Of a DNA stretch of 64,000 nt, positions 34,466 to 63,313 are shown in pieces. Under the pieces are notes generated by a model, which did no database searches, was not told the DNA's origin, and saw only the letters and a program-made list of their open reading frames with translations. Source of the stretch: a virus; IMG/VR virus record IMGVR_UViG_3300032053_000053, positions 6,734 through 70,733 of that record, one strand, 5' to 3'. How positions within the stretch are numbered: the first letter of the stretch is position 1; each line of letters opens with the position of its first letter. Made by a program: the position numbers and the translations under genes.

Positions 34466-35146
34466 ATGTCTCTTAAATTACTACAACCAGGCTATATGCC
34501 AATGGGTCAATTCGACGGTTACGATACTGAAGTCACTCTCCTTAAGGGCGGTGAAGTCGTAACTTTCAAAAGCGTAACTGTTGCATTTGCAGATAAAGTT
34601 GCTGCATATCTCGATGGTTATTCAAATGACAGCGGGGTCGAGAAGCGCACCGTAGTCAGCAACAACCTACCTTCAACAGCTCGTGTCTTAATGCTCGCTG
34701 ATGAAGGCGTCGCTGGTTATGGAACAATGCTCGGAAGTCTCGTAGGGGAAACTGCCGGTCAATCAGCTCTTGGGACAACCCTCGGGCCACACACCACAGC
34801 AGGTTCGGGTAAAGTTACTTGTTGGGATAAAGCTGGTCTCTATGCAGTTTCACTTGATGCATGCGACACCAACACTTCAACAGGCCTACAACCAACCAAC
34901 CTAACCCTCAAGACTGGTGATAAGCTCTTTGCAACTGCAGCGGGCCTTCTTACACCACTTAGCTCAGCCTCATTTGCTGGGTCAGGCGTCTTCCCATGCG
35001 CAACCTTCGTTGAATTCTCAACCAATGGTTCACTCGTCAATACACCGGCAAATCTATCACAAGCTCTTAACAGCCCATCTGGTTCACCAGCCGCTGCCAA
35101 GTCCTTTAAATTCGCTGTGTTCTATTGGCAACCAGGTTTAGTCTAA
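34466..35146 (+). CDS. Putative major head decoration protein
   Basis: Codon usage like the MCP (C-ending codons), own terminator, Gly/Thr/Ala-rich, last + strand gene before the MCP. Confidence 0.65.
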   Translation: MSLKLLQPGYMPMGQFDGYDTEVTLLKGGEVVTFKSVTVAFADKVAAYLDGYSNDSGVEKRTVVSNNLPSTARVLMLADEGVAGYGTMLGSLVGETAGQSALGTTLGPHTTAGSGKVTCWDKAGLYAVSLDACDTNTSTGLQPTNLTLKTGDKLFATAAGLLTPLSSASFAGSGVFPCATFVEFSTNGSLVNTPANLSQALNSPSGSPAAAKSFKFAVFYWQPGLV

Positions 35147-35156
35147 TTTTAATTAA

Positions 35157-36131
35157 TTAAACTAATATAGCTAAAAGAGGCGGCTTTTCAGTCGCCTCTT
35201 TTTTATTTTGATATTCCGTTATTTGCTTTATCCAAATATTAAAATTTTCCAATTCCATTCTTTCTTTGGCAAAATTACAATATTTGCAGCAAGCGACTAC
35301 GTTGTCTTTGTTATGACCTGAATTTGAATTAATTCGATCTAGTCCGTTATAGTAATATTCTGATTTTTCTATTGATAATTTTGGCCTACAACTATTTAGT
35401 ATACAACGATTAAATGGTTTGGCATCGCAATAATGGCAATTCTGCTGAGTTAATTGCCAAAATTCTTGTAATGTTAAATCTCCATCTTTATACCTGTAGA
35501 AAATTTTCCTTACTGATGTAGCATAATATTTTGGCAATATACAATCAGTGAAAATATGGTTTACATTTTCTTTAATTTTTAATGACCGAATATATCTGTG
35601 AAAATCTTCTATTGACCGATTACTTTTGGCTCTATTACATGTATTACAGCAAGCAACAACGTTATCTATTTTGTGCGGTTTATTACTATTAATTCTATCA
35701 AGCCCATTAAATGTGAATGTCCCCGCATCTTTAACTGATTGTGGGCTATTGTTTGATTTTACAGCGAAACAATTATATTTTTTTGAAGGAGAGCATCCGC
35801 AATAAAAACAATCTTGCTGAGATATTTCGTAGAATTGTTCAAAAGATATATCGCATTCTTTATCGTCATTATAATATCTCGACCAAACTATTCTTGCCGA
35901 CGATATTGCTGGTTCGTATTTTCGTCTATTAATCGCCATGAAACAAGACAGATTGTCCATATATTCTTTTAGCAAACATCCGCAAGATTTAGTGCATTTG
36001 TTTAATCTAACCTCTAGAACAATTGCTTTTTTGCCGCAATCACATAAACATTGCCATTTATTATCAATTTTTTTAATTAATGTTAATCGATAAAACTTGT
36101 CTCCGGCCCTATAATTATTTCGTTTTCTCAT
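35157..36131 (-). CDS. HNH homing endonuclease with tandem HNH domains
   Basis: RLTL..WQCLCDCG N-domain; two CxYC...NGLDR...NVVACCxxCN domains. Confidence 0.85.
   Translation of the reverse strand: MRKRNNYRAGDKFYRLTLIKKIDNKWQCLCDCGKKAIVLEVRLNKCTKSCGCLLKEYMDNLSCFMAINRRKYEPAISSARIVWSRYYNDDKECDISFEQFYEISQQDCFYCGCSPSKKYNCFAVKSNNSPQSVKDAGTFTFNGLDRINSNKPHKIDNVVACCNTCNRAKSNRSIEDFHRYIRSLKIKENVNHIFTDCILPKYYATSVRKIFYRYKDGDLTLQEFWQLTQQNCHYCDAKPFNRCILNSCRPKLSIEKSEYYYNGLDRINSNSGHNKDNVVACCKYCNFAKERMELENFNIWIKQITEYQNKKEATEKPPLLAILV
35173..35204 (+). terminator. Rho-independent terminator, potentially bidirectional
   Basis: AAAAGAGGCGGC-loop-GTCGCCTCTTTTTT. Confidence 0.8.
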
Positions 36132-36153
36132 GATTTTTTTTGGACAATGAAAT

Positions 36154-36831
36154 TTATTGCTTTGTACTGGCAGTAATTAGCTTCTTATGTCTTTTTTTAG
36201 AAACCCCGTCCATTAAATTTTGTTTTGAATTTAATGGACGCAAATTATTAATATCCCAACATTCATTAAAAGCACTGTCTTTCATTGTTATATAGCCAAA
36301 TGTAGATTGTGGAATTATATGATCAATTTGCCACGTCCACGTTGTTACATCATTATCATTCCAAGAATTTGTGCTATATGATCCATAATTTTCCCAGCTC
36401 ATCCATGGCTCAAATTGATTCTCTATGTGCAACTTAAGATCAAGAATAGAGTATGGTAGAAAATTAAATATTGATTTACCGGTTTTATAACCACCATTTT
36501 CAATTAAATAATAATGAATTGATCTGCTTACATTTTTTCTTAATTTATACGTCACATTTGTTTTTCGAAGACGCCTTTCATATTTCGTTATTTTATCTTT
36601 ATTCAGCATTTTCCAGCGTTTAGATTTACTTCTATTCTTTGCCTTTTCTAAATCACTATTATTACCATATCTTTTTTGATAATTAATTTGTGATATGCGA
36701 CTAAAACATTCTTTGCATTCTGGCCTATATTTATTTCTGTCATGACGAAAATAAAAGTCAGATATTGGTTTTGTCTTTTTGCAAATTATACATTGCATTT
36801 TTTTTGGTGATCCTTTATTCTTATAATCCAA
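36154..36831 (-). CDS. HNH endonuclease (WxIDHIIP type)
   Basis: CIIC/CKEC zinc finger; WQIDHIIPQS...NLRPLNSKQN; likely start at 36798. Confidence 0.82.
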   Translation of the reverse strand: MDYKNKGSPKKMQCIICKKTKPISDFYFRHDRNKYRPECKECFSRISQINYQKRYGNNSDLEKAKNRSKSKRWKMLNKDKITKYERRLRKTNVTYKLRKNVSRSIHYYLIENGGYKTGKSIFNFLPYSILDLKLHIENQFEPWMSWENYGSYSTNSWNDNDVTTWTWQIDHIIPQSTFGYITMKDSAFNECWDINNLRPLNSKQNLMDGVSKKRHKKLITASTKQ

Positions 36832-37940
36832 TTATTAAAATCTTCTAATAATAGATTTCCTTTAGCAAAATTACAGTATTTACAGCAAGGTACTATATTG
36901 TCTTTAGTATGTGATTTATTATTATCTAATCTATCAATTCCGTTATAATAATAATGAGCGCCATCTTTAGCTAGTTTAGACGCTTTTTTATCCTTTAAAT
37001 AAACATTGTAATAATTAACTTCCTTAACTCTACAATAAAAACATGGTAATTTTGAATAAGTATAAAATGTAGGTAGATCAATTTCCATTTTGCCATAATT
37101 CCTTTTATAATGTCTATAGGCACATTTCACTGATACAAGCAAGTAGCTATTTGGCAATGTAAGTAATCTATCTGAAAATATAAACTTATTAATCTTTTTT
37201 AACCCAATAATATATTTGTGAAAATCGATTATTGATCTGTTGCTTTTAGCTCTATTACATGTCCAGCAGCATGGAACAATATTGTCTTTACTATATGTGC
37301 AATCATTATTCACGCGGTCTATTCCATTGTAAACAAACCACCCATTGTTTTTTGCTTTTTGCGATGCCGATTTCCTGCCAATAAAACAATTATAGTTATT
37401 GCTTGGCGCGATTCCACAATAATTACAATTCATCTGGCTAATTAATAACCATTCATCGAAAGTTAAATTACATGTTAAATCTCTACGACAATAACTTTTC
37501 CATAATCTACGCGCAGAAGTGGTATTAGGTTCATATTTTGTGATTACTGCCGGAGACAAAAGCCTATTTTTTAATAGAGCTTCTTTTTTTAAGCATCCGC
37601 ATGACTTGGTATTACCGCTATTAATTTTACCTGTATTTGCAATTAAAGTTTTTCCGCACTCACATTCGCATAACCACCGGCTGTTTCCGATATAATTAAT
37701 CATCGTTAATCTATTTATTTTTTGTCCAGAATAAAGGGATAAATTAATTGTACAACCACAGGATTTTTGAGCGTTGCTTGTTAATGTGCCCGTCCTAACA
37801 ATCAATATTTTTCCGCATTCACATCGACAGTTCCAGCCTGTAAATGATCTGCCTCCAGCTTCACTTGGTAAAATATTATTTGCTTTAGATATGACGGTTA
37901 ATTTTTCGAATTTTTTCCCAACAAGATCTAGTTTTTTCAT
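36786..37940 (-). CDS. HNH homing endonuclease with tandem HNH domains
   Basis: Two CxCxCG N-terminal modules and two NGIDR...CCxxCN domains; AAGG before the ATG at 37940. Confidence 0.85.
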   Translation of the reverse strand: MKKLDLVGKKFEKLTVISKANNILPSEAGGRSFTGWNCRCECGKILIVRTGTLTSNAQKSCGCTINLSLYSGQKINRLTMINYIGNSRWLCECECGKTLIANTGKINSGNTKSCGCLKKEALLKNRLLSPAVITKYEPNTTSARRLWKSYCRRDLTCNLTFDEWLLISQMNCNYCGIAPSNNYNCFIGRKSASQKAKNNGWFVYNGIDRVNNDCTYSKDNIVPCCWTCNRAKSNRSIIDFHKYIIGLKKINKFIFSDRLLTLPNSYLLVSVKCAYRHYKRNYGKMEIDLPTFYTYSKLPCFYCRVKEVNYYNVYLKDKKASKLAKDGAHYYYNGIDRLDNNKSHTKDNIVPCCKYCNFAKGNLLLEDFNNWIIRIKDHQKKCNV

Positions 37941-45025: not shown

Positions 45026-46009
45026 ATGCCCAAGATTAAGAATGATTTGTCTGGAAAAATATTCGGAAGATTAACGGCGAATAATCATGCCGGATTCGCA
45101 GTGAGTAATTTAAACAATAAACGAAGATCTGTTTGGAATTGTAAATGCTCTTGTGGAAATATAGTTTTAATTAGAGAGAATGGGCTTTTAACCGGAAATA
45201 CTAGGTCTTGTGGATGCCTTCATAAAGAACAATCGAAAATCAATGCATCGGCCGTTCATATATCAAATATAAAATATAATCCAATTATATTTTCCGCAAA
45301 ATCTATTTGGTGGGCAACATATAAAGAAAATGATGGAGTTTCTTTTGATGAATTTTACAAAATGTCTCAACAAAATTGCTTTTACTGTAATTCTGAACCA
45401 AATACAAAATATAATCGGTTTAATAAGGCAAATGCAACGTTTATTTATAATGGTTTAGATCGCGTTAATTCAAAATTTGGACATGTTAGCGACAATGTAG
45501 TTGCTTGTTGTAAAATATGTAATAGGGCAAAGGGAAATAAATTAATATCAAACTTTAATCAATATATAATTAATTTAATGTCAGCTGATAGAATAAGTCC
45601 AGATAGCTATCGTAGTTTGCATCATAATATATTAATGTGTGATCTTAATGAAAAATATCTGGGCTCATCAATAAAAACTACATTCAAATGCAGTTATAAT
45701 GATAGCGGATTATCGATTAATCAATTTTACAAATTATCACAGCTAAATTGTTATTATTGCTCACAAAGTCCAAATAACAAGGCTAATAAATCAAAAAAAG
45801 ATGGCGGAGATTATATTTACAACGGCTTAGATAGATTAGATAACTCCATATCTCATTGTTATAGTAATGTTGTCCCATGCTGTAAAAGCTGTAATTTCGC
45901 CAAAAGTAATTTATCTTTTGATGATTTTATGTATTGGATTGGAAAATTGAAAAGTAATCATAGTAATCTTCAAATAAAAATAAATACCATGCTCGGAAAT
46001 ATACAATGA
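45026..46009 (+). CDS. HNH homing endonuclease with tandem HNH domains
   Basis: FGRLTA..WNCKCSCG; two YNGLDR...CCKxCN domains. Confidence 0.85.
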   Translation: MPKIKNDLSGKIFGRLTANNHAGFAVSNLNNKRRSVWNCKCSCGNIVLIRENGLLTGNTRSCGCLHKEQSKINASAVHISNIKYNPIIFSAKSIWWATYKENDGVSFDEFYKMSQQNCFYCNSEPNTKYNRFNKANATFIYNGLDRVNSKFGHVSDNVVACCKICNRAKGNKLISNFNQYIINLMSADRISPDSYRSLHHNILMCDLNEKYLGSSIKTTFKCSYNDSGLSINQFYKLSQLNCYYCSQSPNNKANKSKKDGGDYIYNGLDRLDNSISHCYSNVVPCCKSCNFAKSNLSFDDFMYWIGKLKSNHSNLQIKINTMLGNIQ

Positions 46010-46716
46010 GCAGCGAAAGTAATTTTGCATATTCTTTAAAGTATAATACCCATTTTGTAATAAAGAATATTACTGGTTATACTGATGCCGAAATACTTGC
46101 AGAAGAAAATTTGGTTATTCCTCAAGCATATAGATCACGCAAGAAAACTATACATGTTTTTCATTATCCAATACTTGCAGGAGAAACAAGAGACTTATTG
46201 CAGATACCGGGTGTCCAAGAGTCTGATATTCGGTCATCTCTTCTTAAAGGTGTGATTAGGCATAAGTTTTTGTGTGGAGATATTGCATTAGTGTCAAGTA
46301 ATATAGACCTTCTTCAATTTAGCGACAAACAACGCGCATTCTTGTATAAGTACGGTTTCTTTGAAGGAGTGGCAATAGGGGAAGATGAAATTGATGATAC
46401 TGGAATTTCTTATATACAAACAAAAATAGTATCAAGCAGTATAGGGTATTTGTGGAGAGAAAAAATACCTTTAATTGGCGCCAGAGATGGGCTTAATAAA
46501 ACATTTTATACGCCAGATAAGTTCATTAACGGCTCGTATTTAAGTAATATTTTCCATATAACAGTAGAGCACAATGGAAAAGAATTGTATGAAAATATAG
46601 ATTTTACAATTGGAGAGTCGGCAGGCCCAGGTACCGGTTATGACATAATTAATATATTTTCGTTAACTCCAAATTACCACAGTTTACTTTTTGCAACATA
46701 CGCAATAAAAATTTAA
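46006..46716 (+). CDS. Putative structural protein
   Basis: 236 aa; C-terminal GARDGLNKTF..NGKELYENIDF beta module; ATGA coupling. Confidence 0.5.
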   Translation: MSSESNFAYSLKYNTHFVIKNITGYTDAEILAEENLVIPQAYRSRKKTIHVFHYPILAGETRDLLQIPGVQESDIRSSLLKGVIRHKFLCGDIALVSSNIDLLQFSDKQRAFLYKYGFFEGVAIGEDEIDDTGISYIQTKIVSSSIGYLWREKIPLIGARDGLNKTFYTPDKFINGSYLSNIFHITVEHNGKELYENIDFTIGESAGPGTGYDIINIFSLTPNYHSLLFATYAIKI

Positions 46717-46825: not shown

Positions 46826-48322
46826 ATGGCGCCGTACGTTAGATTAAATGCATTGGATCAGGCTTTAGATATAGCCGGGTCTTTATTACAATCAGACCTT
46901 AGAACATTGTCTAATGAGCCAGATGGTTATGGCGCTCCAATTTCTGGGCAATCTGGAACTGATGGTTATATATCAGCAGTTTCTTTAGGAATAGCAACTG
47001 TCACGGGCTTAACTGGGATGACCGCTCAGTCCATAGGTAGATTCTTAACCTTAGTAGATGGTTATGCTCCAGCCAATACAGGAACATTTTTAATAGTTCA
47101 ATTTAACTCAGCCGTATCTGTTGATGTTTCCAATGCATCGGCCGTAGTTAATACCACTAATCCTATTATATGGTCAGAACGAAATCCATATAGATTAGAA
47201 GATGACTTAAACTTTGTTCGTACAGATCGTAGATTAATTAAAGGAACAACTAATTTTTATGATGCAGTTCCAACATACAGCAGACCAACCGCAACTGGCA
47301 CTCTTGTTCCAGCTAATTTATCAAATATTGCCGGGAAAACTCTTGATGCGCATGCCTGGGTAATTAATCGATTATTTAGAGCCGATCCAGTTCTTGCAGG
47401 TGATGGATATTCTATAATTAGTGCGCCTGGCGCTTTACAATATGCCGATGCAACTGATCGTACTGGCGTTCCTATTAATGATGGTTTTGACGCTGGTAAT
47501 AGCGAGGCCACATATGTAGAAATAATAAATCCGGCAACAGAGGAATATCTTATTGCACGAGGTGGTTCTACTGATGGATATAGGATTTTTGGACGAACAC
47601 GACAAGGAACCACTGGTGTTGAGCCAAATAGCCTTGAGGTCGAGTTCCGCGCAGTTCCAATGGGTGCGGCAGTTACTTCGTCTGTTGCATATACTTGGGA
47701 CGCGTATCAACCAACAACTGTAGATTATTACTACGGTTATCGTGAAAGAGCTGATAATCTAACTGAAACTGCCTTTAGAACGACCTTGGTAAACGGCTTG
47801 TTCAGTGATGGTGGGGCAACTACAAATATCAACAATATTCTTACCACTATTGGAACAACTATTGGCGATACATTTCTGACATTAACTAATACGGGGAACT
47901 ATTTCGTATTTAGTGATTTACCAGACGGAACCCCTTCGGTAACAGAGGCGTTTAATACAATAAACACCCAAATAGGGGATAGAGTGTTTACCGGTACGGT
48001 CATTGGCAACGACGATGGTTACACGATTACACAAATACTGCAAGACCTAGCTGACGCAATATCGACAGCGAGCGTTTTAAGAATCAAAGAGATACTTGCT
48101 GTAGACGTAAACGCCAACGTAGCTCATACTATACCCGGCGGAACATATACCATAGATCCTACTTTCAATGGACAGAATTTAAATGTTTACACACGAGGAA
48201 TCTTACGAGATCCTGGGCCGGTTGCAACAGGTAATGATTATTCTGAGACAAGCACAACACAGGTTACGTTTTATGCAAAGCAAAAAGCAGGCGATCATAT
48301 CAACTACTTTATTTACGCGTAA
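46826..48322 (+). CDS. Putative virion surface structural protein (6 DGY motifs)
   Basis: Thr/Gly/Ala-rich 498 aa; AGGA RBS; own terminator. Confidence 0.6.
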   Translation: MAPYVRLNALDQALDIAGSLLQSDLRTLSNEPDGYGAPISGQSGTDGYISAVSLGIATVTGLTGMTAQSIGRFLTLVDGYAPANTGTFLIVQFNSAVSVDVSNASAVVNTTNPIIWSERNPYRLEDDLNFVRTDRRLIKGTTNFYDAVPTYSRPTATGTLVPANLSNIAGKTLDAHAWVINRLFRADPVLAGDGYSIISAPGALQYADATDRTGVPINDGFDAGNSEATYVEIINPATEEYLIARGGSTDGYRIFGRTRQGTTGVEPNSLEVEFRAVPMGAAVTSSVAYTWDAYQPTTVDYYYGYRERADNLTETAFRTTLVNGLFSDGGATTNINNILTTIGTTIGDTFLTLTNTGNYFVFSDLPDGTPSVTEAFNTINTQIGDRVFTGTVIGNDDGYTITQILQDLADAISTASVLRIKEILAVDVNANVAHTIPGGTYTIDPTFNGQNLNVYTRGILRDPGPVATGNDYSETSTTQVTFYAKQKAGDHINYFIYA

Positions 48323-51073: not shown

Positions 51074-51081
51074 TGGCATAT

Positions 51082-52650: not shown

Positions 52651-53412
52651 ATGGTCAATGGTATTCGTAAAGAAGATCTGGATGATTTAGATATTGTAGA
52701 TTCCATAGAATTAGCTTCTGACGGATATACAGTCTATTTGACATCTACAATATTTTCTACAATTAATGCTGGCAGTGTAATTACTATTAATTATCCTTCT
52801 GATGGAGAAGGTTTAATTACCGGTAGAGATCATTCGGCACAAACTGGAGATAGGGTAAGATTAACTGGAACTTCCGGTGGGCTGGCTGACGGTTATTATA
52901 TTGTTAATTCTATAATATCTGAAACAAGTTTTTCAGTTAATGAAGTCATAGCGTCTTCCACTGGCGGCACTATATATTTTATGTATTCCGCCGGGGCTAA
53001 AAGCGTAGGTTTTGATCCTTCTGGATTAATTACTATTACGGCTAATAATGTTCAAGATGCAATTAAAGAAATTGCTTTTAATTCTACTGGCATTTCAGAA
53101 CCAATTCATAAATCTTTACGTCATTTAATTCATTTTATCGTTGATGGACCCGGCGACGGTTTTCCATCAGGATCTTATCGTGAAACATTGCCAAATGGTA
53201 ATCCCTTTCCAACTTCTATTATTTGGTGGGAGTCATCTGCAAAAATTAAAAAAATTCTTGAAAGAACTTTAACATTAAATAATCAAAAAAATGCAACTAT
53301 GGTTGTTTGGAAAATGTATGACACTAATGGAACTACTGTGTTAGCTACAGCAACTGATTCAATTACATATTCTGGCATATTTGAAGTTAGTAGGACTAGA
53401 ACTTTTAGTTAG
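52651..53412 (+). CDS. Putative structural protein (2 DGY motifs)
   Basis: Beta-rich; HSAQTGDRVRLTG..GYYIV module; ANNVQDAIKEI. Confidence 0.55.
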   Translation: MVNGIRKEDLDDLDIVDSIELASDGYTVYLTSTIFSTINAGSVITINYPSDGEGLITGRDHSAQTGDRVRLTGTSGGLADGYYIVNSIISETSFSVNEVIASSTGGTIYFMYSAGAKSVGFDPSGLITITANNVQDAIKEIAFNSTGISEPIHKSLRHLIHFIVDGPGDGFPSGSYRETLPNGNPFPTSIIWWESSAKIKKILERTLTLNNQKNATMVVWKMYDTNGTTVLATATDSITYSGIFEVSRTRTFS

Positions 53413-54200: not shown

Positions 54201-57200
54201 ATGTCATTTGATTCACCGGCAGCCATATTATTTTCTAGGGACGGTTATGATGTAGCTACCTTAGATGCGTATAATATAATACCACAACAAACTGGTATTA
54301 TTTCTGCAGCTCGTGATGGTTCTGTTGCTAGATTTATTACTGCTGACGGATACGGCAATCAAATTGTAGTAGGTTCTGGCACTGCAGGATTTCCTGCTGG
54401 TGGAATATTATCTATACAGGGAGTTTCTGGTGGACAGGCAATACCTGTTACAGGAACGTTTAGCAACCCATCGGTATCTCTTATTGGAATAGCTCCGCCA
54501 GGCTCTGCAACTTATTTAGGCGGCTCAGTTACTACATTACCGCCATCATACACTGATGGTTATTTAAATGCGTTATCACTAACTACAACCGGATTATTAA
54601 GGGTTGATGGATCAAATGTTACACAGCCTGTATCAGGCACTGTTACTGTTGTTCAACCTAATGCAGCAAACTTACATGCATTAGTAGTTGGTGCAGCGCC
54701 AGACGGTTATAATCCTATGGGCAACCCAGTTTTAGTTGCTGGATGGGACGGAACTAATCTTCATACAATTAGAACTGCTACAGACGGTACTGTTAGAATA
54801 GACCCAACTGGAACTACAACTCAGCCTGTTTCTCAAGTTGGTGCGTGGAATGTTAGTCAAGTTACTTCTCCATGGATAACTATAGATGCAATTGCAGACG
54901 GTTATTTACAAAATATTTTAGCAAATCAAATTAACGGTACGCAACACACTATAGTAGATGGTTATGTTCAGACTAATCCTAATGTAAATGCAACGCAAGT
55001 TGGTACGTGGACAGTTCAACAAGGCACTCCACCATGGATTACTAAAGATGGTTATGTAACTACTTCGCCACCAACATATATAAACAATACTAATAATTAT
55101 TTATCGTTAACAACTACAGGACTGTTACGCGTTGATGGATCCAATGTTACTCAGCCTGTTTCTCAAGTTGGAACATGGACGGTGCAGCAGGGAACGCCGC
55201 CTTGGACAGTTATTGGAACATCATCTGATAATAGTATAAATGTAACTACAAAACTTTCTGCATTAATAGCTAGATCAAATATAACCGCCCCAACGTGGAC
55301 TGACGGTTATCAAGTTCCATTATCAGTTACTACGGACAGTTTACTTCGTATAGATGGAGTATATCCAACAGGAGCAGCTCCTGGCGCTGATGCTACTTTA
55401 ATTGCCGGGTCAGTTACCACATCTCTTCCATCTTACACAAATGGGCAAATGAACAATTTGTCTTTAACAACAAATGGATTATTGCGTGTAACTGGTGGTT
55501 ATGCAGATAACACCACTAATACTATAGATAAGCTTCCAGTACTTCCAGCGATAGCAAATACTTCTCCACGATCTTGGACTGATGGCTATAAAGTACCTCT
55601 TTCTACTTTACTTACCGGAGCATTAAGAACTGATATTACAAGTTGGATGGGTTCAACTGCCCCAACTATTGGTCAAAAAACCGCAGCTAATAGCATACCT
55701 GTTATTATGGCGAGCGATCAGCTTGTTCAGTTGACAGGAATTATTGATAACAATATTTTTACTGATGGCACTACCAGGGTACAACCTTCTGGTTACATTT
55801 TTGATGAAGTTGCTGGTACCGCCCTTACAGAAGATGACGCTGCTGCCGCTAGAATTGATTCTAAACGCGCACAAATAATAACAATTGAAGATGGCACTAC
55901 AAGAGGATTGCGTAATACAATTAAAGGCGCATCTACTGCCGCTGTCGCTGCCGACCCATCGCTTGTAGTTACTATGAGCCCAAATACTGCGGCTATACCT
56001 ATAAATCAATTTGGTATTATTAGTACTGGAAATTCCACTAATATAAATTTGGCAGCGGGAGCAACGTTTACTGGAACTAGTATTAGTGGTTTAGGATATG
56101 AGTTAATTCAATTTCATTTTAAATCTGATCGTCCTCATACTATTTTTATTGAACACTCTCAAGATGGAGCTAACTGGGATGTTGTGGATACATTCTATGC
56201 TAGAGCTAATTTTGGTACTAGCCAAAGTATTAAATTAGTAGATGAATTTTTCAGGGCTCGTATTACAAATACTGGTGCCAGCACTTCAACATTTTTACGT
56301 TTTGAATGTAATTTAATGCCTATTGGGGAACCTACCCCGCGCACACTTACATCTCAAGGTAATTTTAAAGTTGCTTTACAAGACAATGAGCATGAAAAGC
56401 AGGCGGGATTTACTGCATTTGGACTTCTTAAAGTTGCTCAAGAGGGCATGATTGGAAATTTAAGATTTAATTCTACAACTATTAATACACAATGGAATCA
56501 AACTATTACTGGTATTGGAAACTATACTTTTGGGGCCGGAGATTCCGGTATAACATTAAATACTGGAGCATCTACTAGTAGTAAAATTAGTTTAACTTCT
56601 AAACAAAAATTTTATTATGAATCTGCTCGTAGTAATCAAGTAAAAATGTCTATTATTTTGGGAGACTCTGGTGTCGCTAATAATATTAGAGAGTGGGGAT
56701 TATCAGATGGATATAATGGAGTTTTCTTACGATTAAGCGGAACTACTCTTAGTATTGTTTTACTTAATAATGGTGTAGAAACAGTTGCCCCTACAACTTC
56801 TTGGGATAGACCAGTAACAATTGATGGCTATGGTCATCTTTGGTATATTCAATTCCAATGGTTGGGCGTTGGTAATTTTTATATTTATTATGATGAAGAG
56901 TTGGTTCATACAATTCGTTATGTAGGAACCTCAACTAATTTATCTATGGGTACGCCAGATTTACCGGTATATTTTAAAAACGAAAATACTTCTAATACAT
57001 CTAATGTTTTTATGAGAATGGGGTGTGTAGGAGTAATAGCCGAAGGTGCAAATATTATATCTGGCATTGCTGATGACGGTAGTATTCAAGAAGTTAGAGT
57101 AGATTCTAATGGTAATTTGCAAGTAGTTACAGCTACTGTTTCTGCCACAACATTTATAGGTCTTATTACTGGATTTTTGACTCTTGGAGGCGGCACTTCA

Positions 57201-57869
57201 AACACTTTAAATCCTGTTAGAGCAACTACATATAATGAGCAATCGACTAGCGCCGGACGATCTATTTCTTCTGCTAACGTTAATGATACAAGTGCAGGCA
57301 CTGGCGCTCAACAAGTAACTATTGTATATTACAAAAGTGATGGTTATGGACCATTTACTGAAGTAGTTACTATGAATGGAACATCTGCCGTTAATACTAC
57401 AAATACTGACATATGTTTTATTGAAAAAATGTTTGTATCTAGAACTGGTTCTGGAGGATTTAATGCTGGCGTTATTACTTTGTTTGTTGGAACTGCCGGC
57501 GGTGGTGGAACTTTAGGAACAATGGGAGTTGGAAATTTAGTCGCTGCAACAGGAGATAATACTACATTATGGGCGCATCATTATGTTCCTCCAGGAAAAA
57601 CTGCATCATTAGCTACAGTTATTCTTAGTAATTTCGGAGGAACCGGATCTGGTATTACTACTATGATTTTGAAAGCTAAAAAAATTGGTGTAACCGGTGC
57701 AGCTGATGTATTAATTAGTGATCTTATTGCTGTGCCAACTGGTAATGCATTAGTTAGACAATTAGGCATTCCAATTAGAGTTGTGGGACCAGCAAGGGTT
57801 TTGGGATATACAATTCCAGCATCTAACAATACTAGTAGCGAATTATCATTTGATTTCTCGGAGATATAA
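54201..57869 (+). CDS. Large fibre/spike-like structural protein (12 DGY motifs)
   Basis: 1222 aa Thr/Gly-rich; internal repeats (LSLTTTGLLRVDGSNVTQPVS; QVGTWTVQQGTPPW); FQWLGVG-containing beta domain. Confidence 0.65.
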   Translation: MSFDSPAAILFSRDGYDVATLDAYNIIPQQTGIISAARDGSVARFITADGYGNQIVVGSGTAGFPAGGILSIQGVSGGQAIPVTGTFSNPSVSLIGIAPPGSATYLGGSVTTLPPSYTDGYLNALSLTTTGLLRVDGSNVTQPVSGTVTVVQPNAANLHALVVGAAPDGYNPMGNPVLVAGWDGTNLHTIRTATDGTVRIDPTGTTTQPVSQVGAWNVSQVTSPWITIDAIADGYLQNILANQINGTQHTIVDGYVQTNPNVNATQVGTWTVQQGTPPWITKDGYVTTSPPTYINNTNNYLSLTTTGLLRVDGSNVTQPVSQVGTWTVQQGTPPWTVIGTSSDNSINVTTKLSALIARSNITAPTWTDGYQVPLSVTTDSLLRIDGVYPTGAAPGADATLIAGSVTTSLPSYTNGQMNNLSLTTNGLLRVTGGYADNTTNTIDKLPVLPAIANTSPRSWTDGYKVPLSTLLTGALRTDITSWMGSTAPTIGQKTAANSIPVIMASDQLVQLTGIIDNNIFTDGTTRVQPSGYIFDEVAGTALTEDDAAAARIDSKRAQIITIEDGTTRGLRNTIKGASTAAVAADPSLVVTMSPNTAAIPINQFGIISTGNSTNINLAAGATFTGTSISGLGYELIQFHFKSDRPHTIFIEHSQDGANWDVVDTFYARANFGTSQSIKLVDEFFRARITNTGASTSTFLRFECNLMPIGEPTPRTLTSQGNFKVALQDNEHEKQAGFTAFGLLKVAQEGMIGNLRFNSTTINTQWNQTITGIGNYTFGAGDSGITLNTGASTSSKISLTSKQKFYYESARSNQVKMSIILGDSGVANNIREWGLSDGYNGVFLRLSGTTLSIVLLNNGVETVAPTTSWDRPVTIDGYGHLWYIQFQWLGVGNFYIYYDEELVHTIRYVGTSTNLSMGTPDLPVYFKNENTSNTSNVFMRMGCVGVIAEGANIISGIADDGSIQEVRVDSNGNLQVVTATVSATTFIGLITGFLTLGGGTSNTLNPVRATTYNEQSTSAGRSISSANVNDTSAGTGAQQVTIVYYKSDGYGPFTEVVTMNGTSAVNTTNTDICFIEKMFVSRTGSGGFNAGVITLFVGTAGGGGTLGTMGVGNLVAATGDNTTLWAHHYVPPGKTASLATVILSNFGGTGSGITTMILKAKKIGVTGAADVLISDLIAVPTGNALVRQLGIPIRVVGPARVLGYTIPASNNTSSELSFDFSEI

Positions 57870-57872
57870 AGT

Positions 57873-59066
57873 ATGCCAATTACATTTAGCAATTCACAAA
57901 CTGTATTATCAGATAATTGGACATATTTTAAATCTATACTGTCTGTCAAAACTATGTTAGTTCAATATCTTGATGATGGCATTACTTATTCTATTTTTGC
58001 CTTTGATGGATCGTTAGTTTATTCTTGTTCAATTTGGAAAGGTGATGTGCCCTATGGCGTCTCATTAACTTATAGTCAAGAACAAAATGATATAGATAAA
58101 GCAGACTTTGAAACTAATTATAAAACAAAAGCTAATGCTTCATTAAATCCCATTAATGCAAATGGCATTTCTTTATCAACTATAGAGCCAAGAGCTGGTT
58201 CAGAAGTTATTTATGCTACTCATAATTTTTGCGATCGAACAACTTGGTTTGGAGATAGCGCAAGAGTTAATGGTGAAGTTTTAACAGATTCTGGCGACGG
58301 TTATGTTTTTAATAGTTCACACATTAATTGGATTGATATGCGAACTGGTAGAGTATTAGATGACGATGGGTTAGTAGAAGAACAACAATTATTAAATCCA
58401 AGCGATCCTCATGGTTATCAAGTTATTGTTAGTGTAGATGGTTATCTAAAATCTCCTCATGAAATTTTTGAAACTGCTGGTGGCGATTATGAAATCTTTT
58501 ATGACGATGGTTACGTAAAATTTGCCGAATCTCAGGCTGGCAAAACTGTAACAGCATCATATTCATATGAGAATGGAAGTACATTTTATACAAAACCGCT
58601 TCCGGGTAAGACGTTAAAAATAGAGGCGGCTGAAGCAGACTTTTCAGATGATATTGGACAAACAGATACTATTGAATATTCTGTGTGGGGCTTGGTGGAT
58701 GTTTTTGCTCCACAATATTTAGATACCAATGGTGGTCCATATCCTTCAGGAACTAAAATTCGATTAAAACAAGGATATTATAAGCGCTATACTCAAATTC
58801 TTCGTGAGGCAATTGGATCCTTTCCATCTTTACAAGGTAATGGGGTTTTAGATGAACACAAAGGTTTATCTATAAAAGAGTTTAGAAGACGGTCTCGTGG
58901 CGGATTACATACCATGCAATCTATTCCATTTAGATATGCTACAGTTAGAGATTTATTTTCAGACTATGGAATGGAATTAAGAGTGAAATTATTACACGAT
59001 AGAGTATTTTATGGGGAGACTTCTACTATAACATTTTATTGTACTTCAGTAAATAAAGGATCATAA
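57873..59066 (+). CDS. Putative structural protein (3 DGY motifs)
   Basis: 397 aa, beta-rich; GGAG RBS. Confidence 0.55.
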   Translation: MPITFSNSQTVLSDNWTYFKSILSVKTMLVQYLDDGITYSIFAFDGSLVYSCSIWKGDVPYGVSLTYSQEQNDIDKADFETNYKTKANASLNPINANGISLSTIEPRAGSEVIYATHNFCDRTTWFGDSARVNGEVLTDSGDGYVFNSSHINWIDMRTGRVLDDDGLVEEQQLLNPSDPHGYQVIVSVDGYLKSPHEIFETAGGDYEIFYDDGYVKFAESQAGKTVTASYSYENGSTFYTKPLPGKTLKIEAAEADFSDDIGQTDTIEYSVWGLVDVFAPQYLDTNGGPYPSGTKIRLKQGYYKRYTQILREAIGSFPSLQGNGVLDEHKGLSIKEFRRRSRGGLHTMQSIPFRYATVRDLFSDYGMELRVKLLHDRVFYGETSTITFYCTSVNKGS

Positions 59067-60660: not shown

Positions 60661-60670
60661 TATATATATT

Positions 60671-63313
60671 ATGACAACCGCCTTTGGACCGATAACGCTT
60701 GGAAGAGATTATAATTTTTTCAAGAAAATAACCGTTATTAATAATATTTTTAGTGCAGATTGCGATGTAGTTATTACATTTTCAGTTGATTGTTTGTCAA
60801 TATTAAACGAGGGAACTGGTGTAATTGAGGTTTCATTTAATGGGTCGACAGTTCATGCAGAATTAAACCCTAATACAAACACATCAAATATTAATATTCG
60901 CTCTTCAGGTATTAGCAAAATATGGCTTAGATTAAAGTCTGGCGCAGCATCAACTGTTAGAATTCAGAGCAATTCAGAAGTAGCAACAGCTATAACATCA
61001 CCTATTACTATTTCAGGATCAGTAACTGCTAATAATAGCTCAGTTGGGCTTGATGATATTGCGGCCCCAGCCGATTCCACTAAATTAGGAGGATTGGACT
61101 CGTCTAATAATCTTAGGGCTTTAAAAGTTTTTGATTTAGATACTGGGGCAGGTATAGATTATAATTTGGGCATAAGTTTAAGATTACCTGCTGGTGGAGG
61201 ATCTGTGGTCGGTGGAACTACAGCTAATCCAATAAAAATAGATCCAACTGGAACAACCACACAGCCAATTTCGGTCGCATCTTTACCATTACCAACAGGC
61301 GCAGCTCTTGATGCAACATTACTAACAATAGATACAGATATTAAAGCTACACAGCCAAGAGATGTTACAGATAGAGCTGCTCGTTTGCTTGGGATAGTAT
61401 ATGGGTCTCAAAACCAACAACTTAAACAAACCCCAACTAATTTTAATTTGCAGTCAGAGATTGCTGTTGGCGGCACACTAATTGATCCGAGGTCTATTAG
61501 GGCACTAACAAGTTCAGACGTTATAACTGTAAACGCCGGATCTGGTACGTTCACTGTTTCGGGAACTGTTACATCTAATATTGGGACAACTAATGGGTTA
61601 GCTCTTGATGCAACATTAATAGGTGGAACTCAAACAACCAGAATAACTGATGGTACTAATACGGCTACAGTTAAAGCTGCATCTACTGCCGCTGTTTCCA
61701 CTGATAAAGCATTGGTGGTAACTCTTTCTCCTAATAATTCGGTTGTTTCTAATGCAGATGGATATACAACCACTTCTGCTCCAGCATATACAAATAATAC
61801 TTTTAGCCCTTTATCATTAACTACCGTTGGAAATTTAAGAGTTGACGGGTCATCTGTTACACAACCAGTATCTGGAACTGTTACATCTAATATTGGGACA
61901 ACTAATGGGTTAGCTCTTGATACGTCTGTAGCAAAATTAAATATTTCACAGGGGTCAGCTTTAGGCACTAATACTCAGGCGATGGTTGGAGGTAGCGTAT
62001 CATCAGCCTCACCTACTTATACTGATGGATATATAAATCCGCTTTCTCTTACAACATCTGGTGCGTTGCGAGTTTATAATAGCAACACTGCCACCGCTCA
62101 ATCAGTGGCATTTGCAGATGGGGCAGGGCTAGATTCATTTGGAAGATTAAGAATATCATCTCCACATACTTTATTTGATTGTAAACAATTAATAGATAAT
62201 CAACCACTAATATTTGATGATCAGCAAACTAGCGGGTCCGGAACATCATCTACATTTTTAACGAATCAATCATCATCAAAATTATCAGTTAGTAATTTGA
62301 CAGCTGGAACAAGGGTAAGACAAACATTTACTAGGTTTAATTATCAACCAGGAAAAAGCTTTCTTGTCACGGAAACGGGTGTGCTCGGGGCAGGAGCATC
62401 GGGAATTACCAGAAGGGTAGGTTATTTCGATCAAAATAACGGGGTATTTTTTCAAATATCCGGGACTATAAAAAGTGTGGTTGTTAGAACCAGTACCAGC
62501 GGAGCCCCTGTAGATAATGTAATTCCGCAAAGCACGTGGAATTTAGATAAATTGGATGGTACTGGTGTAAGTGGAATAACATTTGATTCATCTAAAACAC
62601 AAATATTTATGATAGATTTTCAGTGGCTTGGTGTTGGCCGTATAAGATTTGGTCTTAATATTAATGGAAAAACAATATATGTCCATGAAATTGATAATTC
62701 TAACGTTCTTTCGGTTGTATATATGTCAGTACCTAATTTGCCAATCAGATATGAAATCTCTAATAATGGGACTGGCCCTGCCGCAGATTTAATTCATATT
62801 TGTTCATCTGTAATTGTAGAGGGAGGAAGGGAATCGACTGGTATTGTACTTTCTGCAGATAGAGGTTCAACACCATTAGTTACTCTTAATGATAGCAATA
62901 TATATCCATTAATATCTATTAGATTAAAATCTATAGCTCAAATGGCATCACTAAGCCCAATATCATTTTGCGTTGTATGTACGTCTAATACTATATATAG
63001 AGCGTCTCTTTTACTAAACCCAACGATAGTAGGAACTGCTCTTACGTACACGCCTATCACCGGTAGCGTTACAGATATTAGTAATACATCTACAAATGCT
63101 ACTACTGTTACTGGCGGCACATTAATTCAATCATTTTATGTAGATGTCAATGCCTCATCATCACCACAGGTAACCTTGAATGATATTCCAAGCGATCTGC
63201 GCATTGGCTCTACAATAGCCGGAGTATCTGATATTTTAGTATTGGCGATACAAAGAATAACCGGAACCACTGAAACTTTTTATGCTTCAATGATATGGCG
63301 TGAACAAAATTAA
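60671..63313 (+). CDS. Fibre/spike-like structural protein, partial paralogue of 54201..57869 (2 DGY motifs)
   Basis: Shares IDPTGTTTQP, LSLTT.G.LRVDGS.VTQPVSG, KxASTAAV..D..LVVT.SPN and FQWLGVG segments. Confidence 0.65.
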   Translation: MTTAFGPITLGRDYNFFKKITVINNIFSADCDVVITFSVDCLSILNEGTGVIEVSFNGSTVHAELNPNTNTSNINIRSSGISKIWLRLKSGAASTVRIQSNSEVATAITSPITISGSVTANNSSVGLDDIAAPADSTKLGGLDSSNNLRALKVFDLDTGAGIDYNLGISLRLPAGGGSVVGGTTANPIKIDPTGTTTQPISVASLPLPTGAALDATLLTIDTDIKATQPRDVTDRAARLLGIVYGSQNQQLKQTPTNFNLQSEIAVGGTLIDPRSIRALTSSDVITVNAGSGTFTVSGTVTSNIGTTNGLALDATLIGGTQTTRITDGTNTATVKAASTAAVSTDKALVVTLSPNNSVVSNADGYTTTSAPAYTNNTFSPLSLTTVGNLRVDGSSVTQPVSGTVTSNIGTTNGLALDTSVAKLNISQGSALGTNTQAMVGGSVSSASPTYTDGYINPLSLTTSGALRVYNSNTATAQSVAFADGAGLDSFGRLRISSPHTLFDCKQLIDNQPLIFDDQQTSGSGTSSTFLTNQSSSKLSVSNLTAGTRVRQTFTRFNYQPGKSFLVTETGVLGAGASGITRRVGYFDQNNGVFFQISGTIKSVVVRTSTSGAPVDNVIPQSTWNLDKLDGTGVSGITFDSSKTQIFMIDFQWLGVGRIRFGLNINGKTIYVHEIDNSNVLSVVYMSVPNLPIRYEISNNGTGPAADLIHICSSVIVEGGRESTGIVLSADRGSTPLVTLNDSNIYPLISIRLKSIAQMASLSPISFCVVCTSNTIYRASLLLNPTIVGTALTYTPITGSVTDISNTSTNATTVTGGTLIQSFYVDVNASSSPQVTLNDIPSDLRIGSTIAGVSDILVLAIQRITGTTETFYASMIWREQN
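61562..61921 (+). repeat. Identical 48-bp direct repeat x2 inside the fibre gene
   Basis: GGAACTGTTACATCTAATATTGGGACAACTAATGGGTTAGCTCTTGAT at 61562 and 61874. Confidence 0.9.

What the first reader, a model, noticed from the sequence alone, without database searches (positions are those of the whole stretch)
34466..63313. DGY tripeptide enriched across six putative virion-surface proteins: candidate virion-modification sequon
Seen: by hand count Asp-Gly-Tyr occurs 27 times: 34466 (2), 46826 (6), 52651 (2), 54201 (12), 57873 (3), 60671 (2). I saw none in terminase, portal, protease, MCP, internal proteins or nucleases. In the 54201 protein 12 of about 22 DG dipeptides are followed by Y. Flanks are unrelated and codons vary (gatggttat, gacggttat, gatggatat, gatggctat, gacggatac), so this is not a DNA repeat. 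Within one repeat family the motif is optional (PSYTDGYLN, PTYTDGYIN vs PSYTNGQMN, PAYTNNTFS), so the fold does not require it. Inference: DGY has been selected repeatedly at exposed turns as a recognition tag, e.g. for Tyr glycosylation/phosphorylation, cross-linking, Asp-Gly isomerisation, or docking of an accessory protein. I know of no described phage DGY sequon. The responsible enzyme is not identifiable here.
Basis: partly seen in the sequence, partly recalled or inferred. Interest (0 to 1): 0.9.

Follow-up and report, generated by a model that had tools for sequence, protein, structure and literature searches.

The report
DGY tag on huge-phage virion proteins
The tail, fibre and probable head-decoration proteins of this uncultured huge-phage fragment carry the exact tripeptide Asp-Gly-Tyr far more often than chance, and it behaves like an undescribed tag that something reads, perhaps a sugar-adding enzyme, though no modification has been shown.

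Summary
The hand count is exact: 27 DGY in six ORFs and 0 in the other 49 ORFs of 100 aa or more. Over the whole 70.7-kb contig DGY occurs 30 times against 3.25 expected. It is the most enriched of all tripeptides, and 0 of 2000 shuffles reach 30. The signal is in frame, so it is a protein signal, not a DNA signal.

In relatives the same families carry DGY at 83 different alignment positions, with featureless flanks. Close variants (NGY, EGY, DGF, DAY, DSY) are not enriched: DGY is 245 observed against 9.2 expected. DGY richness is a genome-wide trait that whole lineages lack.

It co-varies with a conserved glycosyltransferase cassette (GT4, GT2s and a dTDP-glucose dehydratase-like gene) that lies beside DGY-rich structural genes in relatives. 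It co-varies equally with a short nucleotidyltransferase encoded in this window, and with a tubulin gene, so phylogeny confounds the link. This contig is a fragment and holds no glycosyltransferase.

Best reading: a trans-read tag, most plausibly a Tyr O-glycosylation site; this is unproven. My library searches found no paper describing it. This scan has already noted the same motif in at least 69 other genomes.

The parts
34466..35146 (+). 226-aa protein encoded upstream of the major capsid gene, a probable capsid decoration or cement protein. DGY at residues 17 and 50.
   Evidence: Counts. D50-G51-Y52 is invariant in all 31 aligned homologues, including those from DGY-poor genomes, so this site may be structural. 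The model has pLDDT 72.7 and both sites lie in or at a loop. The best Foldseek rows are capsid outer-shell or decoration chains of phages BB1, FCWL1 and T1, but they are weak (E 0.17). The gene sits where phage G has its gp26 'capsid decoration' gene; there is no sequence similarity to gp26.
46826..48322 (+). 498-aa conserved tail/baseplate-type protein. DGY at residues 33, 46, 78, 193, 250 and 397.
   Evidence: Counts. At least 449 homologues were found, all from metagenome contigs, and none in the GenBank phage collection. Model pLDDT is 77.9. Residues 416-498 resemble the N-terminal domain of the CBA120 TSP4 tailspike (Z 9.1), and residues 39-121 form a beta-barrel as in the phi92 endosialidase (Z 7.4). 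In 112 homologues DGY occupies 24 columns, 0 to 7 per protein.
52651..53412 (+). 253-aa virion-module protein of unknown role. DGY at residues 24 and 80.
   Evidence: Counts. Homologues in the loci carry 77 DGY against 3.1 expected, at 11 distinct columns in 29 sequences. It has no Pfam or PHROG family and no significant pairwise similarity to the 46826 protein.
54201..57869 (+). 1222-aa fibre-like virion protein. Twelve DGY, at residues 14, 49, 119, 168, 233, 253, 283, 368, 461, 836, 875 and 1047.
   Evidence: Counts; 12 of 22 DG are followed by Y. Residues 721-953 match phrog_1645 'virion structural protein' (E 1.3e-20). It holds the repeat family P.YT(DGY).N.LSLTT.G.LRV in which DGY is optional. 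It is a paralogue of the 60671 protein.
57873..59066 (+). 397-aa protein of unknown role encoded between the fibre genes. DGY at residues 142, 189 and 212.
   Evidence: Counts. Homologues carry 14 DGY against 1.4 expected, at 7 distinct columns in 11 sequences. No family was found.
60671..63313 (+). 880-aa fibre-like virion protein. DGY at residues 363 and 452.
   Evidence: Counts. Residues 486-879 match phrog_1645 'virion structural protein' (E 7.7e-91), and the C-terminal half is 31-39% identical to cyanophage 'virion structural proteins'. It shares the repeat family with the 54201 protein.
46006..46716 (+). 236-aa protein encoded next to the 46826 gene. It has no DGY here, but its family carries the motif in relatives.
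   Evidence: 55 homologues carry 17 DGY against 2.6 expected, at 3 columns.
5490..6260 (+). 256-aa short nucleotidyltransferase in the head gene module. It co-varies with DGY richness and is only a candidate reader or writer.
   Evidence: It matches PF01743 (PolyA_pol head domain) at E 1.5e-12. The family was found in 15 of 15 DGY-rich records, and in 1 of 12 poor or low records, where the hit is a 497-aa form. Short-form orthologues at 40-66% identity were recovered in 13 of the 14 regions I fetched.

Best explanation
DGY is a short tag, independent of position and context, that selection places again and again on the outward parts of the virion of one clade of uncultured huge phages. The carriers are the probable head-decoration protein, a tail/baseplate protein and the fibres. 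The tag is read by a factor acting in trans.

The most likely reader is the clade's own soluble glycosylation cassette. This comprises a GT4-type GT-B enzyme, two or three GT2 enzymes and, in part of the clade, a dTDP-glucose 4,6-dehydratase-like enzyme. It would attach a sugar, probably with a deoxyhexose part, to the Tyr hydroxyl of exposed DGY loops in the cytoplasm during late gene expression, giving the particle a sugar coat.

Shown: the enrichment, its protein-level nature, its strict residue specificity, the many independent gains, the genome-level all-or-none behaviour, and the co-occurrence and adjacency of the cassette in relatives.

Inferred: that anything is attached, that Tyr is the acceptor, that the cassette is the writer, and that this phage, known only as a 70.7-kb fragment, has the cassette.
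For: 1. Enrichment. 27 DGY in six ORFs against 0.72 expected. The contig has 30 against 3.25, and 0 of 2000 shuffles reach that.
2. In frame. 30 of 37 DNA matches are in sense frame 0.
3. Specificity. In the carrier families of 23 DGY-rich loci plus the window, DGY is 245 observed against 9.2 expected. Variants are not enriched: EGY 3/4.9, NGY 3/9.4, DAY 6/7.2, DSY 4/7.9, DGF 11/8.3, DGW 2/1.9. In 15 poor loci DGY is 6/4.4.
4. Independent gains. DGY occupies 24 columns in 112 homologues of the 46826 protein, the highest of all tripeptides despite 0.15 expected per sequence. Across seven families there are 83 distinct sites, with flanks enriched no more than 2.7-fold.
5. Genome-level trait. Loci with no DGY in the 46826 family also have none in the 52651 and 54201 families, for example 0 in 2618 aa. 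Whole-record counts of GAYGGNTAY are strongly one-stranded in rich records: G013 76 against 1 (control 2/3), G004 101 against 9 (control 28/19). They are near control in poor records: G016 20/30, G017 22/38.
6. Cassette. PF00535 and the profiles of the GT-B and the GT2-like gene each hit the same 13 of 27 records. These are all 11 rich records of 181 kb or more, plus G013 and G018. Among genomes at least 90% complete the split is 5 of 5 rich against 0 of 4 poor. PF00534 hit 0 of the 5 poor records searched.
7. Adjacency. In 12 of 13 fetched GT regions the cassette lies next to, and on the same strand as, a protein with 2 to 10 DGY.
8. Reverse test. In 80 loci found through the GT-B, DGY is 890 observed against 86.4 expected in the 10-kb flanks, and 71 of 80 loci exceed 5-fold.
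9. At least two separate lineages lack both features. One is a large poor clade. The other is L050/G016, a complete 529-kb genome nested in a rich clade with 100% support.
10. In poor G019 the fibre genes are followed by two small ORFs and then the tubulin gene. There is no cassette where rich genomes have one.
11. The GTs lack membrane-like segments, so they could act on folded proteins in the cytoplasm.
Against: No modification has been observed anywhere.

This contig has no glycosyltransferase. It is a fragment, and so is its nearest relative (G012, 26% complete), which also lacks one.

The co-occurrence is not specific to the cassette. The short nucleotidyltransferase family is in 15 of 15 rich records and 1 of 12 poor or low records. 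The tubulin gene is absent from 4 of 4 complete poor genomes. The rich/poor split is therefore largely phylogenetic, with only two or three independent contrasts, taken from a quick tree because the careful search did not finish.

Poor lineages tend to have higher G+C, so a host shift could explain several joint losses.

G018 has the full cassette yet no DGY in 3348 aa of three carrier families, and only a weak excess overall: 28 against 6 with control 10/18, and 8 DGY in 13,043 aa.

The DGY at residue 50 of the 34466 family is invariant even in poor genomes. It may be structural.

Phage glycosyltransferases are also known to modify DNA or host polysaccharide (stated in PMC12619734; passages read).

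I know of no linear sequon for Tyr glycosylation (recalled).
Confidence: 0.45

Rival explanations
1. DGY is a trans-read tag, but the reader is not the glycosyltransferase cassette. One option is another writer. This could be the short pol-beta-type nucleotidyltransferase encoded at 5490-6260 adding a nucleotide to Tyr, or a kinase, a sulfotransferase, an oxidase making Tyr cross-links, or a host enzyme. The other option is that DGY is a docking site for an accessory virion protein.
For: All the tag-like evidence applies here too. The nucleotidyltransferase family tracks DGY at least as well as the cassette does: 15 of 15 rich records against 1 of 12 poor or low records, and 5 of 5 against 1 of 4 among complete genomes. 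It is the only co-varying enzyme actually encoded in this window. Short-form orthologues at 40-66% identity were recovered in 13 of 14 fetched regions. Tyr adenylylation by nucleotidyltransferase-fold enzymes such as GlnE is established (recalled).
Against: The nucleotidyltransferase belongs to the CCA-adding/poly(A) polymerase head family, whose usual substrate is RNA. It lies in the head module about 28 kb from the nearest carrier gene, whereas the cassette abuts DGY-rich genes. I could not separate the two candidates. Of 12 further nucleotidyltransferase-positive records, the only complete one also has the GT-B, and the rest are 22-76% complete. I did not search for a kinase, sulfotransferase or oxidase.
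Confidence: 0.25
2. DGY acts directly, without any writer. In this reading it is a small surface patch with an acidic and a phenolic group, repeated many times on the particle. It would bind something in the environment or on the host, such as glycans or metal ions, or mediate contacts between virion parts. It would be kept only in lineages whose hosts make that useful.
For: Enrichment is confined to tail, fibre and decoration-type proteins. The requirement for Tyr over Phe (245 against 11) and for Asp over Asn or Glu fits a need for the hydroxyl and the carboxylate. Poor lineages differ in G+C, which suggests other hosts.
Against: Three residues with featureless flanks at 83 unrelated sites cannot form a defined binding pocket. 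The all-or-none behaviour across unrelated families, together with the adjacency of a modification cassette, fits an enzyme reader better. There is no direct evidence for binding.
Confidence: 0.15
3. DGY is an intrinsic structural motif of beta-rich virion folds, a DG turn followed by an aromatic residue that starts a strand. Its excess would reflect shared ancestry and repeats, not recognition.
For: 7 of 8 modelled sites lie at loops or strand starts. Several sites sit at equivalent positions of one repeat family. The 34466-family site at residue 50 is invariant in 31 of 31 sequences, including those from DGY-poor genomes.
Against: The structurally equivalent NG turn and Phe or Trp are not enriched: NGY 3/9.4, DGF 11/8.3, DGW 2/1.9. 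The motif wanders over 24 to 29 columns of a protein that is 50-77% conserved, and is replaced by unrelated triplets with the fold kept. Whole lineages with the same folds have none. It occurs in five unrelated families in the window.
Confidence: 0.07
4. The signal is at the DNA level, for example a binding, restriction or methylation site GAYGGNTAY, and appears as DGY only by accident of frame.
For: GGT is over-used at the Gly position in this contig: 18 of 27 at DGY against 117 of 348 Gly codons overall in the six genes.
Against: 30 of 37 matches are in sense frame 0, against 3 in another sense frame, 3 antisense and 1 intergenic. All three codons vary. Relatives prefer other Gly codons, for example GGA in G013. 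The matches are confined to particular protein families.
Confidence: 0.01

Closest known systems
Three-residue protein glycosylation sequons: N-X-S/T, and the Bacteroidota general O-glycosylation motif D-(S/T)-(A/I/L/V/M/T). Both are recalled; I read no paper on them here.
   Same: A very short linear motif with a hydroxyl or amide acceptor, scattered over many unrelated surface proteins. It is gained and lost freely in evolution, is meaningful only where the matching transferase exists, and needs no fixed flanks.
   Different: The motif is D-G-Y, so the only hydroxyl is on Tyr. Carriers are phage virion proteins made in the cytoplasm, not secreted proteins. No attached glycan has been shown. 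The candidate enzymes are soluble GT4/GT2 proteins, not membrane oligosaccharyltransferases.
Virion glycosylation of mycobacteriophages by phage-encoded glycosyltransferases (Freeman et al. 2023). I saw this only as cited and summarised in PMC12619734 (passages) and in a search listing.
   Same: Phage-encoded glycosyltransferases decorate structural proteins of the particle. The result is a surface glycan coat.
   Different: In that system the glycans sit at the C-termini of the capsid and tail-tube subunits (as summarised). Here the major capsid protein has no DGY (0 in 50 homologues), the sites are internal loops of tail, fibre and decoration proteins, and a defined tripeptide is involved. 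The phages are unrelated huge phages.
Tyrosine O-glycosylation of bacterial S-layer glycoproteins in Paenibacillus alvei and Thermoanaerobacter (review PMC2943079; passages read).
   Same: It shows that a stable O-glycosidic link to Tyr (beta-Glc or beta-Gal to Tyr) exists in prokaryotic surface arrays, with rhamnose-containing adaptor sugars. The cassette here includes a dTDP-glucose 4,6-dehydratase-like enzyme.
   Different: S-layer glycans are built on a lipid carrier and transferred outside the cytoplasm by a membrane O-oligosaccharyltransferase. None of the passages I read gives a DGY or other linear sequon. Here the proteins are phage proteins and the GTs are soluble.
Tyr adenylylation by nucleotidyltransferase-fold enzymes such as GlnE acting on glutamine synthetase (recalled).
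   Same: A pol-beta-superfamily nucleotidyltransferase modifies a Tyr hydroxyl. The window encodes a short nucleotidyltransferase that co-varies with DGY.
   Different: The window's enzyme belongs to the CCA-adding/poly(A) polymerase head family, which is not known to act on proteins. No evidence links it to the virion proteins.

Membership tests
Protein glycosylation sequon system (motif plus dedicated transferase) | A short linear motif that contains an acceptor residue, with strict residue requirements | tested here: met
   DGY is 245 observed against 9.2 expected, while every single-residue variant is at or below about 1.3 times expectation. Tyr is the only hydroxyl in the motif.
Protein glycosylation sequon system (motif plus dedicated transferase) | The motif is spread over unrelated proteins at non-homologous positions that turn over in evolution | tested here: met
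   Five unrelated families in the window. 24 columns in one family. 83 sites over seven families.
Protein glycosylation sequon system (motif plus dedicated transferase) | A dedicated transferase is present wherever the motif is enriched | tested here: inconclusive
   The cassette is in 13 of 27 records: all 11 rich records of 181 kb or more, plus G013 and G018. Among complete genomes the split is 5 of 5 rich against 0 of 4 poor. It is absent from this 70.7-kb fragment. The link is confounded by phylogeny, because the nucleotidyltransferase and tubulin genes show the same pattern.
Protein glycosylation sequon system (motif plus dedicated transferase) | A glycan is covalently attached at the motif | not testable with these tools
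   This needs mass spectrometry. No cultured or GenBank phage holds the 46826 family or the GT-B.
Protein glycosylation sequon system (motif plus dedicated transferase) | Sites lie on exposed surface | tested here: inconclusive
   By DSSP, 7 of 8 modelled sites lie in loops or at strand or helix edges. DGY columns are only slightly more variable than average: mean entropy 1.45 against a median of 1.16. Solvent exposure could not be computed.
Mycobacteriophage-type virion glycosylation | Glycans on the C-termini of the major capsid and tail-tube subunits | tested here: not met
   The feature is as summarised in PMC12619734. Here the major capsid protein and its 50 homologues have 0 DGY, and the sites are internal.
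Mycobacteriophage-type virion glycosylation | Phage-encoded glycosyltransferases | tested here: inconclusive
   They are present in relatives but not in this contig.
Intrinsic structural turn motif (DG turn plus aromatic residue) | Fixed position in the fold and tolerance of conservative replacements (NG for DG, F or W for Y) | tested here: not met
   The motif wanders over 24 to 29 columns. NGY, DGF and DGW are not enriched. One exception is residue 50 of the 34466 family, which is invariant.
S-layer-type tyrosine O-glycosylation | Membrane O-oligosaccharyltransferase and a lipid-linked glycan | tested here: inconclusive
   The conserved GTs have no membrane-like segment: the maximum 19-aa hydropathy is below 1.6 in all but 1 of 36 members. 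One cassette protein, c3, has an N-terminal hydrophobic segment (2.45 to 2.96). I did not search for an oligosaccharyltransferase family.

The most novel reading that the evidence does not exclude
DGY is the first linear sequon for tyrosine O-glycosylation. With it, a whole clade of huge phages coats the outside of tail, baseplate, fibres and head decoration with a phage-made glycan containing deoxyhexose. Soluble cytoplasmic glycosyltransferases of a new specificity would write the glycan. The number and placement of tags would evolve quickly, as viral glycan shields do.
Probability: 0.35. Interest if true: 0.9.

Novelty: new variant of a known kind. Interest (0 to 1): 0.8.

Why it matters
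If something reads DGY, this is a new protein-recognition code found in hundreds of uncultured huge phages. It would give a three-residue, context-free tag and a matching enzyme set, of interest for glyco-engineering. It would also open a way to study how very large phages shield or target their particles.

The question is directly testable. Co-express one small DGY protein with the cassette and weigh it.

Even without a known writer, the pattern is one of the cleanest cases of selection on a bare tripeptide across unrelated proteins. It can serve as a marker of outward-facing virion proteins in genomes where most genes have no annotation.

Tried and rejected
DNA-level motif: rejected by the frame test.

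Simple repeat or shared-ancestry artefact: rejected, because counting each alignment column once still puts DGY first.

Structural turn motif: rejected as the main cause. It is retained for the invariant site in the 34466 family.

Sequon switch in G018, which has the cassette but is DGY-low: no other tripeptide replaces DGY. The top tripeptides there are pieces of the fibre repeat.

Bacillus phage G, whose capsid protein is the nearest cultured relative at 52.5% identity. Its first 50 kb has 2 DGY against 1.7 expected. The whole record gives 52/6 against control 19/7, a weak and spread-out excess that I did not follow up. LR745208.1 shows no excess: 22/36 against control 40/32.

Unbiased gene-content association within 10 kb of the 46826 homologues found only small unannotated families, present in few loci.

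Splitting the nucleotidyltransferase from the cassette failed. The best 80 of 254 nucleotidyltransferase relatives are all close kin. Of 12 extra records only the one complete genome is informative.

Host inference from the contig's DnaJ gene: best matches are 32% identity or less, to very mixed taxa, so there is no signal. Whether this phage belongs to the 'moraphage' lineage of PMC12619734 was not tested.

Fold identification of the 46826 protein: Foldseek gave nothing at E 0.001 or better, and only single-domain resemblances came from VIA-align. The c8 cassette protein has no PDB relative. The GT2-like profile has no PDB match at E 0.001 or better. The GT-B is a generic GT4.

Literature:
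- 'DGY motif' together with 'phage' gave 0 papers.
- The whole words 'Asp-Gly-Tyr' or 'DGY' gave 393 papers. Of these 30 were listed, and none concerns phage or a sequon.
- Supplements are closed and were not seen.
- Papers actually read were passages of PMC12619734 and of PMC2943079. Freeman 2023 and Pyle 2024 were seen only as references.

The careful tree search did not finish, so a quick IQ-TREE with SH-aLRT support was used. Rich and poor classes were set by my own thresholds: at least 0.004 or at most 0.0012 DGY per residue in at least 700 aa. This left 22 of 60 loci as 'mid' and out of the count. I sent no complex-prediction job, no search of protein representatives and no sequencing-read work.

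Full report
**What the window is.** The window is the last 64 kb of a single 70,733-base virus contig. It encodes a large terminase, a portal, a protease-like protein and a major capsid protein. The capsid protein is 52.5% identical to that of Bacillus phage G. The contig also holds many homing endonucleases. Upstream of the window lie RuvC, DnaJ, primase and sigma-like genes. Homologues of its tail proteins lie on metagenome contigs of 100 to 530 kb. The contig is therefore most likely a fragment of a huge phage.

**The observation.** There are 27 DGY: 2, 6, 2, 12, 3 and 2 in the ORFs that start at 34466, 46826, 52651, 54201, 57873 and 60671. The other 49 ORFs have none. In the 54201 protein 12 of 22 DG are followed by Y. 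Contexts and codons are as quoted.

On the whole contig DGY occurs 30 times. Per-protein composition predicts 3.25 (p 3.6e-19) and a first-order Markov model predicts 9.25 (p 5e-8). DGY is the most enriched of all tripeptides. None of 2000 shuffles exceeded 12. The six carriers have 27 against 0.72. Outside the carriers DGY is at expectation.

Of 37 DNA matches to GAYGGNTAY, 30 are in sense frame 0. The five other orders of D, G and Y occur 3 to 8 times. The signal is therefore in the protein.

The repeat family with optional DGY is real. In two copies that lack DGY at the usual place, a DGY lies ten residues upstream. 54201 and 60671 are paralogues. 52651 and 46826 are not detectably related. 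The six proteins therefore make five families.

**What the carriers are.**
- 60671 and 54201 carry the phrog_1645 'virion structural protein' domain, with cyanophage structural homologues.
- The 46826 model (pLDDT 77.9) has a C-terminal domain like the N-terminal domain of the CBA120 TSP4 tailspike (Z 9.1). It also has a beta-barrel as in the phi92 endosialidase (Z 7.4). Foldseek found no whole-chain match.
- 34466 lies upstream of the capsid gene, where phage G has its decoration gene. Its model weakly resembles capsid outer-shell chains (E 0.17).
- 52651 and 57873 have no family.

'Outward-facing virion proteins' is thus a reasonable inference, not a demonstrated fact.

**Behaviour in relatives.** The 46826 family has at least 449 members, all from metagenomes, and none in the GenBank phage collection. 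In 112 full-length homologues DGY occurs 0 to 7 times per protein, at 24 different columns. At those columns other sequences carry unrelated triplets such as GAA, AAS, DTF and AGE.

When each column is counted once, DGY is still the top tripeptide (24 columns, 0.15 expected per sequence). NGY, EGY and TGY occupy 0 columns, DGF 2 and DAY 3.

I fetched 60 related loci from viral contigs. Homologues of the carriers are DGY-rich there too, given as observed/expected:
- 34466 family: 53/1.9
- 46006 family: 17/2.6
- 46826 family: 123/7.4
- 52651 family: 77/3.1
- 54201 family: 35/3.3
- 57873 family: 14/1.4
- 60671 family: 39/2.5

The capsid protein has 0/1.6 in 50 homologues, and the 44288, 33125 and 32046 families also have 0.

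Across seven families there are 83 distinct sites with featureless flanks. In 23 rich loci plus the window DGY is 245 against 9.2 expected. Every one-residue variant is near or below expectation. In 15 poor loci DGY is 6 against 4.4; 22 intermediate loci were left out of that count.

The 34466 family is an exception. Its DGY sits at two fixed positions, and the one at residue 50 is invariant.

**A genome-level trait.** Loci with no DGY in the 46826 family also have none in the 52651 and 54201 families. Whole-record counts of the codon pattern are strongly one-stranded in rich records and near the control in poor ones. On a quick tree the poor loci form one clade of 15 rows. L008/L009 lie inside that clade and retain DGY. 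L050, from a complete 529-kb genome, is a separate poor locus nested in a rich clade with 100% support. There are therefore two or three independent contrasts.

**Candidate readers.** Earlier notes of this scan named a phage sugar-transferase as a lead. I tested that lead on my own set of records.
- PF00535, a profile of a single-copy GT-B (A2) and a profile of a GT2-like gene (A3) each hit the same 13 of 27 records. These are all 11 rich records of 181 kb or more, plus G013 and G018. Among complete genomes the split is 5 of 5 rich and 0 of 4 poor. PF00534 hit 0 of the 5 poor records searched.
- In 12 of 13 fetched regions the genes form a cassette. Its order is a DGY-rich structural protein, then GT-B (PF00534), GT2, sometimes a methyltransferase-GT2 fusion, an unknown protein, and a GT2-like gene. 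In part of the clade these are followed by a dTDP-glucose 4,6-dehydratase-like gene (361 bits, cut-off 365) and a tubulin gene.
- The GTs have no membrane-like segments.
- In 80 loci found through the GT-B, DGY is 890 against 86.4 expected, and 71 of 80 loci exceed 5-fold.
- In poor G019 the tubulin gene follows the fibre genes with no cassette between them.

**Evidence against the cassette.**
- The tubulin gene is also absent from the four complete poor genomes.
- The short nucleotidyltransferase family encoded at 5490-6260 (PF01743) is in 15 of 15 rich records and only 1 of 12 poor or low records. Short-form orthologues at 40-66% identity were recovered in 13 of 14 fetched regions. Gene co-occurrence is therefore confounded by descent.
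- I could not separate the nucleotidyltransferase from the cassette.
- G018 has the cassette but only a weak DGY excess.
- This contig has no glycosyltransferase at all. Its fibre proteins do not match the proteins that flank the cassette, so I cannot say where a cassette would lie in this phage.

**Mechanism.** The strict need for Asp, Gly and Tyr, the free movement of the motif, the lack of flank preferences and the all-or-none behaviour per genome all fit a linear recognition site read by one factor. Adjacency and shared strand with late structural genes, soluble GTs and a nucleotide-sugar enzyme favour O-glycosylation of the Tyr hydroxyl in the cytoplasm.

Tyr-linked glycans exist in S-layers (PMC2943079; passages). 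Phage-encoded virion glycosylation is known in mycobacteriophages (as summarised in PMC12619734). Phage GTs can also modify DNA (same source).

I put about 0.85 on 'a selected tag read in trans or acting directly', and 0.45 on the glycosylation reading.

**Novelty.** No paper in the library joins 'DGY motif' with phage. None of the 30 papers listed for DGY or Asp-Gly-Tyr is relevant. The scan itself has 143 notes on this motif in at least 69 other genomes. This window is therefore a further member of a recurring and still unpublished pattern. What it adds is the column-wise gain test, the variant-specificity table, the syntenic absence in G019, and the warning that a nucleotidyltransferase co-varies as well as the cassette does.

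Noticed in passing
window 10347-14444: The 1365-aa portal ORF matches portal families only over residues 105-301. Further along it also matches PhoH-like, thymidylate-synthase and terminase PHROGs. This fits inserted elements such as the inteins that another first-reader note reported.
   Followed up: no
window 25348-28220, 35157-37961, 48400-51963, 53440-54198, 59066-60660, 63315-63950; L062 3861-5936: There is a very high load of GIY-YIG and HNH homing endonuclease genes between the structural genes. The second and third most enriched tripeptides on the contig, SCG (15 against 1.5) and CGC (8 against 0.6), may come from their Cys motifs; I did not check this.
   Followed up: partly
window 5490-6260: A short (256-aa) nucleotidyltransferase of the PolyA_pol head family sits inside the head module. 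Short-form orthologues were recovered in 13 of 14 fetched regions of DGY-rich relatives, and the family is nearly absent from poor ones. Its substrate is unknown.
   Followed up: partly
window 54201-57869 (residues 283 and 295) and 60671-63313 (residues 363 and 375): In the two repeat copies that lack DGY at the usual position (PTYINN, PAYTNN), a DGY lies ten residues upstream (KDGYVTTSPP, ADGYTTTSAP). It looks as if the tag had moved rather than been lost.
   Followed up: no
window 34466-35146, residues 50-52: This DGY is invariant in all 31 aligned homologues, including those from otherwise DGY-poor genomes (L011, L044). Unlike the wandering sites, it may be needed by the fold.
   Followed up: partly
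L066 8596-9969 and equivalents in L071-L074: A tubulin/FtsZ-family gene (PF00091) lies just downstream of the glycosyltransferase cassette in relatives. A 32%-identical copy follows the fibre genes in DGY-poor G019.
   Followed up: partly
L071 3326-3604: A 92-aa ORF inside the cassette of G010 is 46% identical to the last 87 residues of the window's major capsid protein. It may be a gene fragment.
   Followed up: no
L066 410-3097: The DGY-rich 895-aa protein next to the cassette in G001 has a dockerin type I calcium-binding repeat match (E 2.5e-7).
   Followed up: no
L062 1751-2713 (contig upstream of the window): There is a full DnaJ gene with J, Cys-rich and C-terminal domains. Its best cellular matches are 32% identity or less and taxonomically mixed. 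Huge aquatic phages with DnaJ/DnaK genes are described in PMC12619734.
   Followed up: partly
NC_023719.1 about 317-345 kb: Phage G has 52 forward against 6 reverse GAYGGNTAY matches (control 19/7). About 15 of them fall within 28 kb. I did not check whether these are in-frame DGY in tail genes.
   Followed up: no
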